In this document: positions 3,503 to 49,391 of the stretch, piece by piece | Layout: the number at the start of each line of letters is the position of its first letter | Numbering within the stretch: position 1 is the first letter of the stretch | DNA from: a virus | Taxonomy: Duplodnaviria > Heunggongvirae > Uroviricota > Caudoviricetes | DNA: 51,277 nt | Reading direction: 5' to 3' (one strand) | Virus record (IMG/VR): IMGVR_UViG_2851955134_000001 | Notes under the pieces: generated by a model | What the model was told of the DNA's origin: nothing | The model's database searches: none | The model's input: only the letters and a program-made list of their open reading frames with translations | Made by a program: the position numbers and the translations under genes

Positions 3503-5074
3503 ATGGACACCTCACTTGCTCATGAGAATGCCCGCCTGCGGGCACTGTTGCAGACGCAACAGGACACCATCCGCCAGATGGCGAAATACAACCGCCTGCT
3601 CTCACAGCGGGTGGCGGCTTATGCTTCCGAAATCAACCGGCTGAAGGCGCTGGTTGCGAAACTGCAACGTATGCAGTTCGGTAAAAGCTCAGAAAAACTT
3701 CGTGCAAAAACCGAACGGCAGATACAGGAAGCACAGGAGCGAATCAGCGCACTTCAGGAAGAAATGGCGGAAACGCTGGGTGAGCAATATGACCCGGTAC
3801 TGCCATCCGCCCTGCGCCAGTCTTCAGCCCGTAAACCGTTACCGGCCTCACTTCCCCGTGAAACCCGGGTTATCCGGCCGGAAGAGGAATGCTGTCCTGC
3901 CTGTGGTGGTGAACTCAGTTCTCTGGGATGTGATGTGTCAGAGCAACTGGAGCTTATCAGCAGCGCCTTTAAGGTTATCGAAACACAACGTCCGAAACTG
4001 GCCTGTTGCCGGTGCGACCATATCGTGCAGGCACCGGTGCCTTCAAAACCCATTGCACGCAGTTATGCCGGAGCGGGGCTCCTGGCCCATGTCGTCACCG
4101 GAAAATATGCAGACCATCTGCCGTTATACCGCCAGTCAGAGATATACCGCCGTCAGGGTGTGGAGCTGAGCCGTGCCACACTGGGGCGCTGGACTGGTGC
4201 CGTTGCTGAACTACTGGAGCCGCTGTATGACGTCCTGCGCCAGTATGTGCTGATGCCCGGTAAAGTCCATGCTGATGATATCCCCGTCCCGGTCCAGGAG
4301 CCGGGCAGCGGTAAAACCCGGACAGCCCGGCTGTGGGTCTACGTCCGTGATGACCGTAACGCCGGTTCACAGATGCCCCCGGCGGTCTGGTTCGCGTACA
4401 GTCCGGACCGGAAAGGTATCCATCCACAAAATCACCTGGCCGGTTACAGCGGTGTGCTTCAGGCCGATGCTTACGGTGGTTACCGGGCGTTATACGAATC
4501 CGGCAGAATAACGGAAGCCGCGTGTATGGCTCATGCCCGGAGAAAAATCCACGATGTGCATGCAAGAGCGCCCACCGACATCACCACGGAAGCCCTGCAG
4601 CGTATCGGTGAACTGTATGCCATCGAGGCAGAGGTCCGGGGCTGTTCAGCAGAACAGCGTCTGGCGGCAAGAAAAACCAGAGCCGCGCCACTGATGCAGT
4701 CACTGTATGACTGGATACAGCAACAGATGAAAACACTGTCGCGTCACTCAGATACGGCAAAAGCGTTCGCATACCTGCTGAAACAGTGGGATGCACTGAA
4801 CGTGTACTGCAGTAATGGCTGGGTGGAAATCGACAACAACATCGCAGAGAACGCCTTACGGGGAGTGGCCGTAGGCCGGAAAAACTGGCTCTTCGCGGGT
4901 TCCGACAGCGGTGGCGAACATGCGGCGGTGTTGTACTCGCTGATCGGCACATGCCGTCTGAACAATGTGGAGCCAGAAAAATGGCTGCGTTACGTTATTG
5001 AGCATATTCAGGACTGGCCGGCAAACCGGGTACGCGATCTGTTGCCCTGGAAAGTTGATCTGAGCTCTCAGTAA
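3503..5074 (+). CDS. IS66-family transposase (TnpC)
   Basis: 523 aa; N-terminal leucine-zipper-like region, CxxC zinc motif and C-terminal region typical of IS66 transposases. Confidence 0.9.
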
Positions 5075-36592: not shown

Positions 36593-36748
36593 TTACTCCT
36601 CAGGTTCGTAAGCTGTGAAGACAGCGACCTCCGTCTGGCCGGTTCGGATTCGTACCTCGCAGAGGTCTTTCCTCGTTACCAGTGCCGTCACTATGACGGT
36701 TAAACAGATGACGATCAGGGCGATTAACATCGCCTTTTGCTGCTTCAT
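36593..36748 (-). CDS. hok: Hok/Gef-family type I toxin
   Basis: 51-aa MKQQKAMLIALIVICLTVIVTALVTRKDLCEVRIRTGQTEVAVFTAYEPEE recognised as Hok family. Confidence 0.85.
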   Translation of the reverse strand: MKQQKAMLIALIVICLTVIVTALVTRKDLCEVRIRTGQTEVAVFTAYEPEE

Positions 36749-36984
36749 AGCCTGCTTCTCCTTGCCTTTCGGCGCGTAAGAGGCTAACCTACGTTTGTGA
36801 AGCATAGATTGGGCCTCAGATTAATGTTAAGCGTCTTGCAGGACGCGTAATGTTAACTGGGGCTTTTATCTATCTGCCGTTGGTGTTCATGCCCGAGGCA
36901 GATAGCCTCAAGCACCCGCAGCAATTCTACTTAACTCACGTCACCTCGCCAATATAAAATCAATCAGAAAGGTGCCCCATAAAA

Positions 36985-37650
36985 TCACTCCTTCTCTTCT
37001 TTACCGTAGTGGAGTTGGCCAATTTTTATAAGAGGGCGTCCCTGAGATTTGCGGTGTAGATTGGTATCGCGCAGAGAATACACACAGCCACAATATTCCT
37101 GCTGATAGAATTTTTCGCGCTTGCTGATTTCAATCATACGGGACGAGCCGCCCTGCTTGCGCCAGTTATAATCCCAGTACACCATACCCGGATAATGCGC
37201 AACAGCTCGCCGCCCACACTCGTTAACCTGCTGCATATTTTTCCAGCGTGAAATGCCCAGTGAACTGCTGATCACACTGAAACCATTTTCAGCAGCGTAT
37301 AACGCTGTCCGCTCAAAACGCATGTCAAAACACATGGTACAACGGATCCCCCTCTCAGGCTCCCATTCCATTCCTTTGGCACGTTCAAACCAGTTGTCGG
37401 TGTCGTAATCAGCATCGATAAACGGCACGCCGTGTTGTTCAGCAAAGCGAATATTTTCATCCTTACGAATTAAATACTCTTTCTGAGGATGAATGTTCGG
37501 GTTGTAGAAAAAGATGGTGTAGTCGATTCCCGAGGCCTGAAGCGCCTCCATCACTTCACCGGAACATGGAGCACAGCAAGAGTGCAGTAGTAGTTTGTTT
37601 GCCCCGTTCGGGAGCTCCAATTTAGGCCGTTTGAAATCAGCAATAGTCAT
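36985..37650 (-). CDS. QueH-like (DUF208) putative epoxyqueuosine reductase
   Basis: [11 protein letters not shown] motif near the N-terminus plus downstream RCTMC and EYCGCVYS cysteine motifs, recalled as DUF208/QueH signatures. Confidence 0.6.
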
Positions 37651-40604: not shown

Positions 40605-41030
40605 TCAGTGCATCACCGCAGCATTACCCGCCGGGCCACCACGATTCATCTGATTGAAACCGGCGATTGCCACTGCGATAAAATCATCCGCGTCTCTCAC
40701 CAGCCGTTCTCGTGTCTCCAGCAGCTCCCTGAAATAGGCTGAGCTGTGGCTACGCATTCTGGCCACCAGCAAAGGCGGCATTGCCTTTTCGATCGCTGGT
40801 AGTAACGCCTGAATTTTTTCAACCGCATCAGGGGTGTCTTTCTCCACCCAGCGGAAAATTTTCTGGGTATTACGGGCCAGGGCTTCCGGATGGCTGTCGT
40901 CGTACAGCTCAGGAAACGTCATGCCCAGCTCGAAATAAACCCTGGTTATCTCGGCTGCCGGAACTTTTTCACCATCCGGACGCGACCAGGCATTCATCGC
41001 CATGCGGATGTGTTCATGCTTGATTTTCAT
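40605..41030 (-). CDS. YdaT-like protein (cII-position regulator of Rac-type phages)
   Basis: Starts MKIKHEHI... like recalled Rac YdaT; follows the cro-like gene. Confidence 0.6.
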   Translation of the reverse strand: MKIKHEHIRMAMNAWSRPDGEKVPAAEITRVYFELGMTFPELYDDSHPEALARNTQKIFRWVEKDTPDAVEKIQALLPAIEKAMPPLLVARMRSHSSAYFRELLETRERLVRDADDFIAVAIAGFNQMNRGGPAGNAAVMH

Positions 41031-41295
41031 GAATCAAGCTCCTAGTAAGTGGTTGTGTTAACGTTTTGGTATCTTCCAGCTCGGGCCAAATATTCATCCA
41101 ATCAAAAGGCCTTAGTTGCTGACGTGTAACTTCACCATTACTGGCTCGCTCAATAAGGACACATAACGATGCCCCTAACATTTGACCTTTACTCAATGCC
41201 TTTCTTAGATAACCGATGCTAGTACCACACTCACATGCAAACATACGCTGTTCATCTGACGAAAGAGAATTGAGAAATATTCTTAATTCTTCCAT
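41014..41295 (-). CDS. Cro-like HTH regulator (YdaS family)
   Basis: Divergent from the repressor gene; AAGGAG RBS; HTH-like region. Confidence 0.6.
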   Translation of the reverse strand: MEELRIFLNSLSSDEQRMFACECGTSIGYLRKALSKGQMLGASLCVLIERASNGEVTRQQLRPFDWMNIWPELEDTKTLTQPLTRSLIHENQA

Positions 41296-41325
41296 AGCTA
41301 CTCCTTAGTAAACACAGCAAAAGAA

Positions 41326-41361
41326 TACCCACAGGTAAACAAAAGTCAATACCCTTGGGTT
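41326..41361. promoter_or_regulatory. oR-like operator pair between divergent cro-like and repressor genes
   Basis: Half-palindromes tacccacaggta (41326-41337) and tacccttgggtt (41350-41361), related to the perfect TACCCATGGGTA sites downstream of the repressor gene. Confidence 0.5.
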
Positions 41362-41396
41362 GTTTACCTTGCGGTAATCGCATCTATTATTTACCT

Positions 41397-41816
41397 ATGG
41401 ACAAATATGAATTTAGACGACAACAACTCATCAAAATTCGTGATGAGAAATGCGATGGTAAAGCGGTTAACGTGGCCAGAAAGATCGGTCGCGAGCCTTC
41501 TTATGTATCAAGAATGTTGTACCCAGAGGGGAAAAAAGGAAAAAAACGGATCGCTGATGATATGGTGGAGATTATAGAAGAGTCCTTTGGGTTACCCCGG
41601 GGATGGATGGATGGTATCGTTTCATCATCAACGAACACAGCCTCCAATTATGAAACAAGGGTTCTAACGCCACGACAACGTATTTTTTTAGATCTCTTAG
41701 ACGAACTGCCTGAAAGTGAAGCGGATAACTTATTAAAAACTCTTGAAGAGAAAAAACAGTATTACAATATGATCTACGAAGAAATCCGTAAAAAGAAAGC
41801 ACAAAACGCATCATAA
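41397..41816 (+). CDS. CI-type prophage repressor (short RacR-like form without peptidase domain)
   Basis: ATG at 41397; HTH around AVNVARKIGREPSYVSRML; divergent from the cro-like gene and flanked by operator palindromes. Confidence 0.6.
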   Translation: MDKYEFRRQQLIKIRDEKCDGKAVNVARKIGREPSYVSRMLYPEGKKGKKRIADDMVEIIEESFGLPRGWMDGIVSSSTNTASNYETRVLTPRQRIFLDLLDELPESEADNLLKTLEEKKQYYNMIYEEIRKKKAQNAS

Positions 41817-41859
41817 CTCACCAAACAACCAGTCACCAGTTAAGATACATCAAAAAAAT

Positions 41860-41906
41860 TACCCATGGGTATTTACTTTTTGGATACCCATGGGTATCCT
41901 TTTTTT
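41860..41906 (+). promoter_or_regulatory. oL-like operators (two perfect TACCCATGGGTA palindromes); the second forms a hairpin plus T7 that can also act as a terminator
   Basis: tacccatgggta at 41860-41871 and within ggatacccatgggtatcc at 41882-41899, followed by ttttttt at 41900-41906. Confidence 0.55.
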
Positions 41907-42082
41907 CATACCAACCCACCCCGCCCCACAGAACGCAGGGCAATACTTCGAGTTACCAGGCAGTGGTCAGGGGTTAAGTAGCCAGCCCGAGGCGTATGAA
42001 CATGACGGCAGGGTTCAACTTTAATAACTATGCAGCAGGTTTTTGTTCCGCTACCCCGGCGTTAAGGGGAAATGAGGTCAGC

Positions 42083-42238
42083 ATGGATACTATCGATCTT
42101 GGCAACAACGAATCTCTGGTGTACGGCGTGTTTCCAAACCAGGACGGCACCTTCACCGCAATGACGTATACCAAAAGCAAAACGTTTAAAACCGAAAATG
42201 GTGCCCGTCGCTGGCTGGAAAGAAACTCAGGTGAGTGA
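42083..42238 (+). CDS. small early protein (YdaF-like)
   Basis: ATG at 42083 with GAGGT RBS; 51 aa; first gene after the oL region. Confidence 0.5.
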   Translation: MDTIDLGNNESLVYGVFPNQDGTFTAMTYTKSKTFKTENGARRWLERNSGE

Positions 42239-42239
42239 T

Positions 42240-42368
42240 ATGGATTTTGACACAATCATGGAAAAGGCTTACGAAGAATACTTCGAAGGCCTTGCCGAAG
42301 GCGAAGAAGCTCACAGCTTCAACGAATTTAAACAGGCGCTTTCCAGTTCGGCAAAATCTAACGGCTGA
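42240..42368 (+). CDS. small acidic protein (YdaG-like), 42 aa
   Basis: ATG one nt after the previous stop; below the ORF-track size cut-off; translated by hand. Confidence 0.4.
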   Translation: MDFDTIMEKAYEEYFEGLAEGEEAHSFNEFKQALSSSAKSNG

Positions 42369-42397
42369 TAAGCGAAACAGCACCGCGAGGAATCAGT

Positions 42398-42616
42398 ATG
42401 CAGAAACGAGAACCCGTCATCATCGCGCCAGACTATACCGATGATGAACTTTATGAGTGGATGCGCCAGAAAATTAATGCAGCGCAGGATCTGAAATGGG
42501 CCAATGAAGCCAGGGCTAAGCAGGCTGAAAATCTGTCCGCTCTGGAGCAGGATATCACCAATCTGGAAAAAGCAGCGGCATTAAGCATTGCCAGAATGAT
42601 TACATACCCGCGTTAA
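42398..42616 (+). CDS. small early protein (RacC-like)
   Basis: ATG at 42398 with GAGGA RBS; 72 aa. Confidence 0.5.
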   Translation: MQKREPVIIAPDYTDDELYEWMRQKINAAQDLKWANEARAKQAENLSALEQDITNLEKAAALSIARMITYPR

Positions 42617-43500
42617 TAGCTAACCAACGAAGCTAAGGTTGGTAATTAAGGAGTTCTCCACGGGTGAGGTGGAGTACGTGCGCCGGACACGGGTGAGCAT
42701 CCGGCACTGACAGTTTACTGAAAGGATATTTCCCTGAAAAGTCAGACCATAACGCGAAAGCGCACGGCGAGGTAGCTGGTTCATAGATAGCCTGTCGTTA
42801 AATTTTCGTCGACCGTGCGCTTCCGGTTGTGGCAACCCGCGAAATGGTGCGGCGGTAAGTATGGCGGGGTTATTTCTTCCCCGTTGAGGACACCGGGTTG
42901 TCAGGTTGACCATGCGCCTGAGTGACAACCCCGCTGCAACGCCATCTGTTATCAATTTTCTGGTGACGTTTGGCGGTATCAGTTTTACTCCGTGACTGCT
43001 CTGCCGCCCTTTTTAAAGTGAATTTTGTGATGTGGTGAATGCGGCTGATCGCACGTGGAACAGTTAAAACCAAAAACAGTGTTATGGGTGGATTCTCTGT
43101 ATCCGGCGTTAATTGTTAACTGGTTAACGTCACCTGGAGGCACCCTGGAGGCACCAGGCACCGCATCAACAAAGTTCACTTCGGTGATGAAAGGTAAGAG
43201 AAAATGTTGAATGTAGCTATTGAAAACCAGTACGGGTGGAATTATAGTGCACCTGCACCTCATAAACCGGGTGCCGGGCGTGGAAACCCGAAGTCAAACG
43301 TAGCGCACAACCGCGCTCAGGCGGTTTTTTTATGCGTGAAGCACAGCCACATTCAGATTATGGTGGGGCGTGCAGGGCAGCCGCAAGGCTGGCCGGGTTC
43401 TACGTTGACCGGTATTTCCACCCCTGTACGTCTCACCACCATTATGGTCGTGGAAAGCCTCGGTGGTGAGTTATCAATACTCAACGTGGAGGCTGCCATT
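42617..43500 (+). other. ~880-bp ORF-free, hairpin-rich segment inside the early-left operon (candidate structured RNA / regulatory leader)
   Basis: No plus-strand ORF of 60 aa or more; multiple stable stems, e.g. gggttgtca...tgacaaccc, gcgcacgg...ccgtgcgc, cgggg-ttatttctt-ccccg. Confidence 0.4.
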
Positions 43501-44055
43501 ATGGCTACTACCCTTACCCTTTCTCACCCTGACGTAACCATTGAAAATGGTCGCGCTGTCACTACGTCTGTTGCGATCGCGGAATTCTTTGGCAAGCGTC
43601 ACGACAATGTTATCCAAAAAATAAAATTACTGGACTGCTCCGCTGAGTTCACTGCCCTTAATTTTAAGGCGAGCGAATACACCGACTCAACAGGACGCAA
43701 ACTCCCTATGTACCAAATCACCAAAAACGGCTTCGTTTTCCTTGTGATGGGCTTCACGGGCAAAAAGGCCGCTGCATTCAAGGAAGCCTACATTGCCGAG
43801 TTCGACCGCATGGAGGAAGAACTGCGCCGGAATAACACCACACCCGCTGACAAAATAATCCCGGGTGATGGCCGCACCCTGGTTATCCGCTTCGACGAAC
43901 ACGGCTACATCAAATTCACCGAAACCGTTCCTGATGGCGCACTGGTCTGTACTCTGGATACTTTCCGTTTTTATCTGGAAAAGCAGGGATGGACTCTCAT
44001 AAACCGGGGCGCAATTAAAAATATGACCGTCGAGCAGTTGCTGAGTATTAAATAG
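43501..44055 (+). CDS. Rha-family phage regulatory protein
   Basis: ATG at 43501 with GTGGAGG RBS; motif ENGRAVTTSVAIAEFFGKRHDNVIQKI typical of Rha N-terminal domain. Confidence 0.65.
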   Translation: MATTLTLSHPDVTIENGRAVTTSVAIAEFFGKRHDNVIQKIKLLDCSAEFTALNFKASEYTDSTGRKLPMYQITKNGFVFLVMGFTGKKAAAFKEAYIAEFDRMEEELRRNNTTPADKIIPGDGRTLVIRFDEHGYIKFTETVPDGALVCTLDTFRFYLEKQGWTLINRGAIKNMTVEQLLSIK

Positions 44056-48234: not shown

Positions 48235-48324
48235 TGGCGGAGAGAGGGGGATTTGAACCCCCGGTGGAGTTGCCCCCACTCCGGTTTTCGAGACCGGTCC
48301 GTTCAGCCGCTCCGGCATCTCTCC
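48235..48324 (-). tRNA. serU: tRNA-Ser (anticodon CGA)
   Basis: Reverse complement reads GGAGAGATGCCGGAGCGGCTGAACGGACCGGTCTCGAAAACCGG...GGTTCAAATCCCCCTCTCTCCGCCA with long variable arm and CGA anticodon; K-12 serU neighbours mtfA. Confidence 0.9.
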
Positions 48325-49315: not shown

Positions 49316-49391
49316 TCCTCTGTAGTTCAGTCGGTAGAACGGCGGACTGTTAATCCGTATGTCACTGGTTCGAGTCCAGTCAGAGGAGCCA
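49316..49391 (+). tRNA. asnT: tRNA-Asn (anticodon GTT)
   Basis: TCCTCTGTAGTTCAGTCGGTAGAACGGCGGACTGTTAATCCGT...GGTTCGAGTCCAGTCAGAGGAGCCA, 76 nt. Confidence 0.9.

What the first reader, a model, noticed from the sequence alone, without database searches (positions are those of the whole stretch)
41296..41906. Immunity region with four TACCCNNGGGTA-type operators flanking a short repressor gene
Two half-degenerate sites lie between the divergent cro-like and repressor genes, and two perfect 12-bp palindromes lie just downstream of the repressor gene where pL/oL is expected. The second forms an 18-bp perfect hairpin followed by T7, so it may double as the repressor transcript terminator. This defines the immunity specificity of the prophage.
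Basis: seen in the sequence. Interest (0 to 1): 0.5.

Follow-up and report, generated by a model that had tools for sequence, protein, structure and literature searches.

The report
Prophage repressor operators, five not four
This is the on/off switch of a lambda-like prophage: five copies of a short DNA palindrome (TACC-N4-GGTA) sit on the three early promoters around a small repressor gene. It is an ordinary kind of switch whose operator sequence had apparently not been written down.

Summary
The core reading, operators of a lambdoid immunity region, holds, with four corrections.

1. There are five sites, not four. A third site between the divergent genes (41365-41376) was missed.
2. The motif is TACC-N4-GGTA. 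The C5/G8 of "TACCCNNGGGTA" are not required.
3. The same layout recurs in coliphage mEp043 and most of about 28 related loci: three sites at about -72/-47/-32 from the repressor ATG, plus a pair 25-26 bp apart bracketing the -35 and overlapping the -10 of pL. All share this DNA-binding domain. The motif therefore marks a broad repressor family rather than this prophage alone.
4. The "18-bp hairpin + T7" is a rare allele. No other complete E. coli genome among the 821 carrying this module matches that stretch exactly. The terminator idea is unsupported by conservation, though not excluded.

The 139-aa repressor is a chimera. Its N-terminal domain is 76% identical to that of mEp043 cI. Its C-terminal domain resembles that of DicA and lacks the S24 self-cleavage domain.

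Verdict: a new member of a known kind, of modest interest. Binding has not been tested.

The parts
40605..41030 (-). CII-position gene, YdaT family (141 aa)
   Evidence: Pfam YdaT_toxin 8e-10. PHROG 'CII-like transcriptional activator' 4e-44. PDB 3C4R 2e-87 and 8BT1 (molecule name 'YdaT_toxin domain-containing protein') 1e-78.
41014..41295 (-). Cro-like HTH gene (93 aa, YdaS family), with AAGGAG Shine-Dalgarno at 41302-41307 on the - strand
   Evidence: 73% identical to mEp043 Cro over 73 aa, E=4e-40. PDB Cro entries 8C7K/8CO2 at 1e-10. Weak Pfam YdaS hit, below the curated cut-off. The Shine-Dalgarno sequence was read.
41322..41349 (-). pR-like promoter: TTGACT (41349-41344), 16 nt, TATTCT (41327-41322)
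   Evidence: Promoter scan, 9/12. Identical in the CFT073-type and L030 alleles.
41326..41337 (.). OR1, TACCCACAGGTA. It covers the pR spacer and the first two bases of the pR -10.
   Evidence: Exact core match. An equivalent site lies at -72/-73 in 26 of 28 related loci.
41350..41361 (.). OR2, TACCCTTGGGTT. It abuts the pR -35 and lies 1 bp upstream of the pRM -35, centred about -41.5 from the ATG/TSS.
   Evidence: One mismatch. The GGTT ending is the commonest form of this site across the family: 15 of 22 OR2 sites have one arm mismatch.
41365..41376 (.). OR3, TACCTTGCGGTA. It overlaps the pRM -35 and spacer.
   Evidence: Exact core match. An equivalent site lies at -32/-33 in 27 of 28 loci.
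41363..41390 (+). pRM-like promoter: TTTACC, 16 nt, TATTAT. The -10 ends 6 nt before the ATG, which predicts a leaderless repressor mRNA.
   Evidence: Promoter scan, 9/12. mEp043 has the same geometry, TTTACC-16-TAGAAT, and a -10-like hexamer lies 6-7 nt before the ATG in many of the related loci. Leaderless paaR2 in CP-933P is an experimental precedent (PMC8630535).
41397..41816 (+). Repressor gene, 139 aa: N-terminal HTH domain (about 1-73), disordered linker (76-87), C-terminal two-helix domain (92-138)
   Evidence: The N-terminal domain is 70-85% identical to that of 221-242 aa S24-type CI repressors and 76% identical to mEp043 cI. The C-terminus matches DicA residues 84-129 at 33% identity, E=1e-7. 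AF2 model pLDDT 87.5. The fold resembles XRE/lambda-repressor-like HTH proteins. PHROG 5736 at 5e-70. No Pfam hit.
41853..41859 (+). A-rich tract just upstream of the distal OL site, possibly UP-element-like
   Evidence: An A-rich stretch occupies the same position in most related loci. The role is inferred.
41860..41871 (.). OL distal site (OL2), TACCCATGGGTA, directly abutting the pL -35
   Evidence: Exact palindrome. A distal site sits immediately 5' of a -35-like hexamer in 25 related loci.
41872..41900 (+). pL-like promoter: TTTACT (41872-41877), 17 nt, TATCCT (41895-41900)
   Evidence: It scores only 8/12, below the scanner's threshold, so one search did not report it. It is assigned by conserved geometry. 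mEp043 has TAGACA-17-TATATT in the same register (10/12), annotated 'putative PL' in JQ182734. The register is the same across the family and in Rac and Qin with different operators.
41885..41896 (.). OL proximal site (OL1), TACCCATGGGTA. Its last TA is the first two bases of the pL -10.
   Evidence: Exact palindrome. The register is conserved in 25 loci.
41882..41906 (+). 18-bp palindrome GGATACCCATGGGTATCC plus T7: terminator-like and allele-specific
   Evidence: Hairpin of -10.2 kcal/mol, z = -2.2. Flagged terminator-like. The GGA/TCC extension and T7 are absent from most alleles.
41907..41930 (+). Right-hand mosaic junction and probable start of the early-left transcript (CATACCAACCCACCCCGCCCC...)
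   Evidence: Phages with other immunity types begin to match at query positions 1001-1010, that is window 41900-41909. Rac carries the near-identical CATACCACCCACCCCGCCCC directly after its own operator/-10.
42083..42616 (+). First genes of the early-left operon (ydfA, ydfB, ydfC homologues), followed by DicF RNA at 42958-43009
   Evidence: RefSeq annotation of the 99% identical locus. DUF1391 at 2e-28. Rfam DicF at 76.7 bits.

Best explanation
The region is the genetic switch of a lambdoid prophage. A dimeric 139-aa repressor is proposed to recognise the 12-bp palindrome TACC-N4-GGTA through an N-terminal helix-turn-helix domain. The Cro-like protein encoded on the other strand very probably uses the same sites. 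Three sites lie between the divergent genes. OR1 sits inside pR. OR2 lies between the two -35 hexamers, where a bound repressor could both block pR and contact RNA polymerase at pRM. OR3 covers the pRM -35 and would give negative autoregulation. Two more sites, 25 bp apart, bracket the -35 and overlap the -10 of pL. pL drives the ydfABC-DicF early-left operon. The repressor mRNA probably starts at its own ATG, so it would be leaderless. The repressor lacks the S24 self-cleavage domain and carries a DicA-like C-terminal helical domain instead. Induction is therefore expected to go through an antirepressor or another RecA-independent route, not through repressor cleavage. Shown here: the sites, their non-random clustering, their conservation, the promoter geometry, the protein homologies and the fold. 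Inferred: actual binding, the order of site occupancy, activation from OR2, the leaderless start and the induction route.
For: There are 4 exact core matches in 51 kb, all in 571 bp, against 0.27 expected. mEp043, a temperate lambdoid coliphage, has a cI whose DNA-binding domain is 76% identical and a Cro that is 73% identical. It has the same five sites in the same spacing (25/15 bp and 25 bp, against 24/15 and 25 here). Its downstream pair flanks the promoter that its depositors annotated as putative PL, upstream of N. Across 28 loci from Enterobacterales, Aeromonas, Orbus and a Hydrogenophilaceae MAG, 125 sites give near-invariant TACC/GGTA arms and variable centres, at fixed offsets from the ATG and from the pL hexamers. 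The predicted recognition helix (residues 34-40, PSYVSRM) is invariant or nearly so in the alignments. Among close alleles the arms are conserved while centres and flanks vary (P = 5.5e-6). pR and pRM were found independently by the promoter scan, overlapping OR1 and OR3. The immunity module ends just after the pL -10, where homology to phages of other immunity types begins. Rac and Qin have the same operator/-35/operator/-10 geometry with their own palindromes. The model is an XRE-type HTH fold with a C-terminal helical hairpin. The C-terminal domain is homologous to that of DicA. DicA is a short repressor lacking the RecA cleavage site, it is relieved by the antirepressor Rem, and its target promoter dicBp is not induced by mitomycin C (PMC10448788).
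Against: No binding experiment exists for this protein or for mEp043 cI, and none was found in the searchable literature. The pL hexamers in this window are weak (8/12) and were not called by the scanner. OR2 and OR3 are only 15 bp apart centre to centre, unlike lambda, so lambda-style pairwise cooperativity cannot simply be assumed. No Rem homologue and no nearby LexA box were found, so the induction route is unknown. The repressor has no Pfam match and no significant PDB sequence match.
Confidence: 0.85

Rival explanations
1. Dual use: besides being an operator, the pL-proximal site with its GGA/TCC extension and T7 (or the hairpin formed between the two OL sites) terminates the repressor transcript coming from pRM. 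That would keep it out of the DicF/early-left operon.
For: The stem-loop GGAUACC-CAUG-GGUAUCC is -10.2 kcal/mol and is directly followed by U7. The inter-site hairpin is -25.7 kcal/mol. The scanner flags both as terminator-like. There is no other terminator in the 43 bp between the stop codon and OL, whereas mEp043 has a separate terminator-like hairpin there, and Rac also seems to by eye in the sequence printed (not scanned). The common CFT073-type allele still scores as terminator-like through the long hairpin with TCCTTCTTTT.
Against: None of the 821 complete E. coli genomes carrying this module matches the 60-nt stretch exactly, and only 10 share a 28-nt word with it. The sampled alleles read TTTCTTT, TTCCTTT or TTCTTTT, and most have AAA in place of GGA. 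The 92%-identical repressor allele (L030/L040) and the Salmonella allele have no T-run. Two tandem near-palindromes must form a hairpin in any case, and across 25 loci the two sites are no more complementary than shuffled partners (P = 0.30). Klebsiella relatives have the T-rich stretch after the -10 without an OL pair predicted by eye to form a strong hairpin. The T-run lies between the pL -10 and the conserved CAT start.
Confidence: 0.3
2. The two downstream palindromes are only a (bidirectional) intrinsic terminator, A7-hairpin-T7, and are not repressor binding sites.
For: An A7 tract precedes and a T7 tract follows the 16-bp inter-site hairpin. The scanner calls a terminator on each strand in some alleles.
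Against: Their sequence is the same motif as the three OR sites. In 25 related loci the pair keeps its register with -35 and -10 hexamers while the T-run and hairpin strength come and go. In mEp043 the pair lies downstream of a separate terminator and on the annotated PL. The arms are conserved while the centres drift without compensation.
Confidence: 0.03
3. The sites are used only by the Cro-like YdaS-family protein, or by YdaT. The 139-aa protein would be something else, for example an antitoxin-like regulator with other targets.
For: The 139-aa protein is annotated 'hypothetical' and has no Pfam domain. In CP-933P both the CI analogue and YdaS footprint the same intergenic region (PMC8630535), so co-occurrence alone does not say which protein reads the motif.
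Against: The motif and its layout track the N-terminal domain of the repressor across loci. This holds where the neighbouring CII-position gene differs: it is Phage_CII-type in mEp043 and in the Serratia locus. The domain is the DNA-binding domain of bona fide S24-type CI repressors. The YdaT of CP-933P recognises TTGATT-N6-AATCAA, a different sequence (PMC9986795, abstract).
Confidence: 0.05

Closest known systems
Coliphage mEp043 immunity region (cI / Cro / putative PL; GenBank JQ182734, PV340537)
   Same: The cI DNA-binding domain is 76% identical and Cro is 73% identical. There are the same five TACC-N4-GGTA sites with the same spacing and the same register with pRM (TTTACC-16-TAGAAT) and pL.
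   Different: mEp043 cI is 228 aa with an S24-type C-terminal domain. It has a lambda-type CII, an extra ORF and a dedicated terminator-like hairpin between cI and OL, and N downstream of pL. The window has a DicA-like C-terminal domain, YdaT, no separate terminator, and ydfABC-DicF downstream. No paper describing the mEp043 operators was found.
Qin prophage DicA / DicC / dicBp (E. coli K-12)
   Same: The repressor is short and lacks the RecA cleavage site. The C-terminal domains are homologous (33% identity over 46 aa, E=1e-7). The downstream operon is the same (ydfA-ydfB-ydfC-DicF). The geometry is the same, with an operator before the -35 and an operator over the -10 (PMC10448788).
   Different: The N-terminal DNA-binding domains show no detectable similarity. 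By my reading, the Qin intergenic regions carry TTAG-type palindromes and not TACC-N4-GGTA. The Qin antirepressor Rem has no homologue in the window.
CP-933P switch of E. coli O157:H7 (PaaR2 / YdaS / YdaT)
   Same: The gene order is the same: short CI analogue, YdaS-type Cro, YdaT-type CII. The window's YdaT-family protein matches PDB 8BT1 (named only as a YdaT_toxin domain protein) at 1e-78. In CP-933P, PR, a leaderless PRM transcript and a PL with its own operators are experimentally shown (PMC8630535).
   Different: CP-933P has 18-bp inverted repeats with the half-site consensus GTTTAGTAA. Its repressor, PaaR2, starts MQKKE and is followed by a toxin-antitoxin pair. Homology of PaaR2 to the window's repressor was not tested.
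Phage lambda OR/OL, CI and Cro
   Same: There is a tripartite OR between divergent repressor and cro genes. OR2 abuts the pRM -35, centred about -42. The repressor mRNA is leaderless. A second operator set lies on pL, downstream of and co-directional with the repressor gene.
   Different: Sites are 12 bp rather than 17 bp. OR2-OR3 spacing is 15 bp. OL has two sites, not three. There is no S24 domain, so no RecA-mediated cleavage is expected.
Rac prophage RacR / YdaS / YdaT
   Same: The gene order is the same. YdaT is 32% identical (E=1e-14). The sequence downstream of pL is shared from CATACC onward.
   Different: RacR shows no significant similarity to the window's repressor. There are no TACC-N4-GGTA sites (up to 1 mismatch) in 5 kb of the Rac immunity region. 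Rac's palindromes are of the TTAGGC...GCCTAA type.

Membership tests
Lambdoid immunity region (CI/Cro switch with OR and OL) | Divergent repressor and cro genes separated by about 100 bp, carrying repeated palindromic sites that overlap two back-to-back promoters | tested here: met
   The spacer is 101 bp with three sites overlapping pR and pRM.
Lambdoid immunity region (CI/Cro switch with OR and OL) | A second set of the same sites on the early-left promoter, downstream of the repressor gene | tested here: met
   Two exact sites bracket the -35 and overlap the -10 of the pL-like promoter. The register is conserved in 25 relatives.
Lambdoid immunity region (CI/Cro switch with OR and OL) | The repressor and Cro bind these sites and repress the promoters | not testable with these tools
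   This needs EMSA, footprinting or reporter assays.
LexA/S24-type CI repressors | C-terminal S24 peptidase domain for RecA-stimulated self-cleavage | tested here: not met
   The protein is 139 aa with no PF00717, while homologues of the N-terminal domain carry it.
mEp043-type CI DNA-binding domain family | N-terminal domain homologous to mEp043 cI, with a conserved predicted recognition helix | tested here: met
   Identity is 76% over 72 aa. Residues S35, Y36, R39 and M40 are invariant in 32 sequences.
mEp043-type CI DNA-binding domain family | TACC-N4-GGTA sites at about -72, -47 and -32 from the ATG, plus a pair 25-26 bp apart on pL | tested here: met
   The window's sites lie at -71, -47 and -32, with the pair at 41860/41885.
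DicA/Gifsy-type short repressors controlled by antirepressors | Short repressor lacking a cleavage domain, with a DicA-like C-terminal domain | tested here: met
   BLASTP against DicA residues 84-129 gives E=1e-7. The model shows a two-helix C-terminal domain.
DicA/Gifsy-type short repressors controlled by antirepressors | N-terminal DNA-binding domain homologous to that of DicA | tested here: not met
   There is no alignment outside the C-terminal 46 residues.
DicA/Gifsy-type short repressors controlled by antirepressors | A cognate antirepressor (Rem-like, or LexA-controlled as in the Gifsy phages) | tested here: inconclusive
   No Rem homologue was found and no LexA box lies near the replication or immunity genes. 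A Rha/Ant-like ORF with upstream isrK and C4 RNAs lies at 43255-44055 and is an untested candidate.
Rho-independent (intrinsic) terminator | GC-containing hairpin immediately followed by a U-tract | tested here: met
   A 7-bp stem of -10.2 kcal/mol is followed by U7.
Rho-independent (intrinsic) terminator | The feature is conserved among alleles or relatives with the same gene order | tested here: not met
   No exact match exists among the 821 complete genomes carrying this module. The T-run is interrupted or absent, and GGA is replaced by AAA in most alleles.
Rho-independent (intrinsic) terminator | RNA 3' ends form at the U-tract in vivo | not testable with these tools
   This needs Term-seq or 3' RACE.
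Rac immunity (RacR and its operators) | RacR homologue and RacR-type operator sequences | tested here: not met
   There is no significant similarity to RacR, and Rac has no TACC-N4-GGTA sites.
CP-933P PaaR2/YdaS/YdaT switch | YdaT-type CII analogue and YdaS-type Cro | tested here: met
   8BT1 at 1e-78. 8C7K and 8CO2 at 1e-10.
CP-933P PaaR2/YdaS/YdaT switch | Operators with the half-site consensus GTTTAGTAA (18-bp inverted repeats) | tested here: not met
   The window's sites are TACC-N4-GGTA. The published consensus comes from PMC8630535.
CP-933P PaaR2/YdaS/YdaT switch | Repressor homologous to PaaR2 | not tested
   The PaaR2 sequence was not retrieved. Only its N-terminus, MQKKE, is quoted in the paper, against MDKYE here.

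The most novel reading that the evidence does not exclude
One DNA-binding domain and operator cassette (TACC-N4-GGTA) is shared by SOS-cleavable S24-type CI repressors, such as that of mEp043, and by this non-cleavable DicA-tailed repressor, which is carried by about 15% of complete E. coli genomes. If the specificities truly coincide, the resident prophage would make its host immune to mEp043-like phages. Its uncleavable repressor could also hold a co-resident S24-type prophage of the same operator family silent during the SOS response. That would be cross-immunity and 'anti-induction' arising from a repressor tail swap.
Probability: 0.3. Interest if true: 0.5.

Novelty: new member of a known kind. 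Interest (0 to 1): 0.3.

Why it matters
The repressor of this immunity module is annotated only as a 'hypothetical protein', yet the module sits in 821 of 5,426 complete E. coli genomes, including CFT073 and O157:H7, O111 and O145 strains. It controls an operon encoding the DicF small RNA. In several related loci that operon also carries the cell-division inhibitor DicB. Knowing the operator motif and promoter layout makes the switch directly testable. It also allows automatic annotation of OR/OL in a wide family of enterobacterial prophages, and it predicts which phages are cross-immune. The kind of mechanism is textbook, so the gain is annotation and testable predictions, not a new principle.

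Tried and rejected
1. It was replaced by the family-derived core.
2. Pfam gave nothing for the repressor. The PDB sequence search gave only insignificant hits, the best being the ADAR Z-alpha domain at E=0.075, treated as chance.
3. Full-text searches found no phage paper for the operator sequences or for mEp043 operators.
4. The mEp043 'c-1' clear-plaque record was compared with the other mEp043 record, in the hope of finding the lesion in cI or the operators. The 5.2-kb immunity regions are identical, so this was uninformative.
5. The idea that the two OL sites are selected to pair as RNA was prompted by the CACA/TGTG centres in L030. Across 25 loci their complementarity equals that of shuffled partners, so the idea was rejected.
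6. No Rem antirepressor was found by tblastn.
7. The only two LexA-box matches (CTGT-N8-ACAG), at 4642 and 12885, are far from the immunity and replication genes.
8. Rac, as a relative of the immunity module, was rejected.
9. A hit inside the repressor gene (41593, TACCCCGGGGAT) has two arm mismatches and was not counted as a site.
Full report
**1. What is in the sequence**

The interval 41296-41906 holds a 101-bp spacer between two divergent genes. One is a 93-aa Cro-like gene (41014-41295, - strand). The other is a 139-aa gene (41397-41816, + strand). A 90-bp stretch follows the 139-aa gene's stop codon.

- GGATACCCATGGGTATCC (41882-41899) is a perfect 18-bp palindrome followed by T7 (41900-41906).
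- The core that emerges from comparison, TACCNNNNGGTA, is enriched. It has four exact matches in 51,277 bp, all between 41326 and 41896. The expectation is 0.27, and none of 100 shuffles reaches four.
There are five sites in all.

**2. Gene context**

- The - strand carries the Cro-like gene, a YdaT-family gene in the CII position (PHROG 'CII-like activator' 4e-44; PDB 3C4R 2e-87, 8BT1 1e-78), and then replication genes.
- The + strand carries the 139-aa gene, then ydfA, ydfB and ydfC homologues and a DicF RNA. This is the Qin-type early-left operon.
- RefSeq annotates the 139-aa product as 'hypothetical protein'. It has no Pfam match.
- The 635-bp module occurs at 80% coverage or more in 821 of 5,426 complete E. 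coli genomes, including CFT073 and O157:H7, O111 and O145 strains.

**3. The repressor is a chimera**

- Its first ~73 residues are 70-85% identical to the N-terminal domain of 221-242 aa repressors that carry an S24 peptidase domain. These come from Salmonella, Edwardsiella, Yersinia, Pantoea and Klebsiella.
- The same residues are 76% identical to cI of the temperate coliphage mEp043.
- Residues 89-134 align with DicA residues 84-129 (33% identity, E=1e-7). The N-termini show no similarity.
- The AlphaFold model (pLDDT 87.5) has helices at 3-18, 23-30, 34-40 and 54-63, a disordered linker at 76-87, and a two-helix C-terminal domain at 92-138.
- Foldseek returns XRE/lambda-repressor-type HTH proteins. 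The top hit is the Rep-Ant complex of a temperate Salmonella phage, 5D50, at E=7e-4 with modest TM-scores.
- The putative recognition helix (residues 34-40, PSYVSRM) is invariant or nearly so in 32 aligned homologues.
- The Cro-like protein is 73% identical to mEp043 Cro.

**4. Comparative test of the operator reading**

In mEp043 the cro-cI spacer has TACCTGTAGGTA, TACCCATAGGTT and TACCGGCAGGTA at -72, -47 and -32 from the cI ATG. The spacing is 25 and 15 bp, against 24 and 15 bp here. Upstream of N lie TACCTATAGGTA and TACCTGTAGGTA, 25 bp apart.

- The promoter scanner places TAGACA-17-TATATT (10/12) exactly between and over that pair.
- The GenBank record annotates the same interval as 'putative PL'.

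A scan of one genome per species returned 24 loci encoding relatives. Further loci came from three look-ups of closer homologues.

- In most of the ~28 loci that share the domain at more than ~50% identity, the pattern repeats. A few show only part of it: the Klebsiella loci lack a recognisable OR2, and L005, L011 and L024 lack a clear downstream pair.
- Sites lie at -72/-73, -47/-48 and -32/-33. The middle site most often ends GGTT.
- A pair 25-26 bp apart lies downstream, at distances of 44 to 1,863 bp after the stop codon.
- The distal site of that pair is followed directly by a -35-like hexamer. The last TA of the proximal site begins the -10.
- Pooling 125 sites gives (T/A)TACC-YRYR-GGTA(A/T). 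The arms are nearly invariant and the centres are weakly constrained.
- Two remote relatives at 29-38% identity lack the sites.
- Among 12 close alleles, arm columns vary in 4 of 40 cases. Centre columns vary in 15 of 20, and other non-coding columns in 64 of 131 (P = 5.5e-6).

**5. Promoter geometry in the window**

- The scanner finds pR-like TTGACT-16-TATTCT on the - strand (41349-41322) and pRM-like TTTACC-16-TATTAT on the + strand (41363-41390).
- OR1 (41326-41337) fills the pR spacer and the first two bases of its -10.
- OR2 (41350-41361) abuts the pR -35 and ends one base before the pRM -35. Its centre is about 41.5 bp upstream of the ATG. In lambda, CI bound at that position activates pRM (established knowledge).
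- OR3 (41365-41376) overlaps the pRM -35.
- The pRM -10 ends six bases before the ATG, with no Shine-Dalgarno sequence. A -10-like hexamer holds this position in many of the related loci. This predicts a leaderless mRNA. Leaderless paaR2 was shown by 5' RACE in prophage CP-933P (PMC8630535), and lambda cI is the classic case.
- For pL I assign TTTACT (41872-41877), 17 nt, TATCCT (41895-41900). This is only 8/12, so the scanner did not call it. The assignment rests on the conserved register.

**6. The module boundary supports the pL placement**

- Phages with other immunity types start to match the window at 41900-41909.
- Rac has an unrelated repressor and TTAGGC-type palindromes in the same operator/-35/operator/-10 arrangement. 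It joins the same downstream sequence (CATACCACCCACCCCGCCCC...) a few bases after its own -10.
- Qin's dicBp region has the same geometry with TTAG-type palindromes.
- The immunity cassette therefore ends at the predicted transcript start, and the T7 lies between the -10 and that start.

**7. The terminator idea**

For:
- The local hairpin is -10.2 kcal/mol (z = -2.2) with U7 directly after it.
- The two sites together form a -25.7 kcal/mol hairpin.
- The scanner flags both as terminator-like.
- No separate terminator lies between the stop codon and OL. mEp043 has one there, and Rac seems to as well, by eye in the sequence.

Against:
- No other complete E. coli genome matches the 60-nt stretch exactly, and only 10 share a 28-nt word with it.
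- Sampled alleles have TTTCTTT, TTCCTTT or TTCTTTT, and mostly AAA in place of GGA. The small hairpin then drops to -3.5 kcal/mol.
- The L030/L040 allele and the Salmonella allele have no T-run.
- Two tandem near-palindromes will form a hairpin regardless. Across 25 loci their centres are no more complementary than shuffled partners (P = 0.30).
- Klebsiella relatives have the T-rich stretch after the -10, yet by eye their OL sites would pair only weakly with each other.

The common CFT073-type allele still scores as terminator-like through the long hairpin. Partial termination cannot be excluded. I give dual use about 0.3.

**8. Induction**

- The protein has no S24 domain.
- DicA is short and lacks the RecA cleavage site. 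It is relieved by the antirepressor Rem, and its target promoter dicBp is not induced by mitomycin C (PMC10448788).
- Gifsy-type short repressors are inactivated by LexA-controlled antirepressors (PMC3121763).
- The window has no Rem homologue and no LexA box near the relevant genes.
- An Rha/Ant-like ORF preceded by isrK and C4 RNAs lies at 43255-44055. It is an untested candidate. The induction route is inferred only by analogy.

**9. Comparison with known systems, and novelty**

- The switch works like lambda's. It belongs with the mEp043-type DNA-binding domain family and has a DicA-type tail.
- It is not a Rac-type immunity.
- It does not share the CP-933P operator consensus GTTTAGTAA.
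- I found no paper giving these operator sequences. Absence from the searchable library is not proof.

The finding is a correct, improvable annotation of an ordinary kind of element. I rate it a new member of a known kind, interest about 0.3. The most novel reading left open is functional cross-immunity, or anti-induction, between cleavable and non-cleavable repressors that share one operator specificity.

Noticed in passing
window 42958-43009, 43255-43331, 43356-43443, 43495-44055 (+): On the early-left operon lie a DicF RNA and then isrK and C4 antisense RNA matches. These sit immediately upstream of an Rha/anti-repressor-like ORF (PHROG 995, 1e-82, plus several 'anti-repressor' families). 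The arrangement recalls the P1 c4-ant and Gifsy-1 IsrK modules. It is a candidate antirepressor for the uncleavable repressor.
   Followed up: partly
L002 (mEp043) about 3551-3578; also L004, L014, L016, L020, L021 and L017-L019, about 45 bp upstream of the distal OL site: There is a conserved wide-spaced inverted repeat, ATTACCTGAAAATTCAAGCAGGTAA. It has the same TTACC/GGTAA arms, but they are separated by 14 bp instead of 4. It could be a third OL element with one extra helical turn. It is absent from the window.
   Followed up: no
window 41407-41577 (+1 frame ORF); proteins P0013, P0016, P0019: Some E. coli records carry 135-136 aa versions of the repressor that begin MNLDDNNSSKFVM. That is the alternative-frame ORF at 41407, which rejoins the repressor frame later. 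These are frameshifted alleles that would lack the DNA-binding helix-turn-helix.
   Followed up: no
window 36593-36917 (-): A hok-like small ORF (70 aa as listed) and a sok antitoxin RNA (Rfam 111 bits) lie inside the prophage, downstream of the replication genes.
   Followed up: no
window 36985-37650 (-): A 221-aa ORF is annotated in the near-identical RefSeq locus as epoxyqueuosine reductase QueH. It is a queuosine-pathway gene carried within the prophage.
   Followed up: no
window 41350-41376 and the equivalent in about 22 loci: OR2 and OR3 are only 15 bp apart centre to centre, with 3 bp between the sites. OR2 most often carries the GGTT half-site defect. This arrangement is unlike lambda's and may imply competition or an unusual contact between adjacent dimers.
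   Followed up: no
window 48238-48324 (-) and 49316-49388 (+): Two tRNA genes lie near the right end of the window. They may mark the prophage attachment site or its edge.
   Followed up: no
L037, L039 (CFT073-type allele), position equivalent to window 41373: In this common allele OR3 carries an arm substitution (GGTA to AGTA). This would weaken negative autoregulation of the repressor promoter.
   Followed up: no
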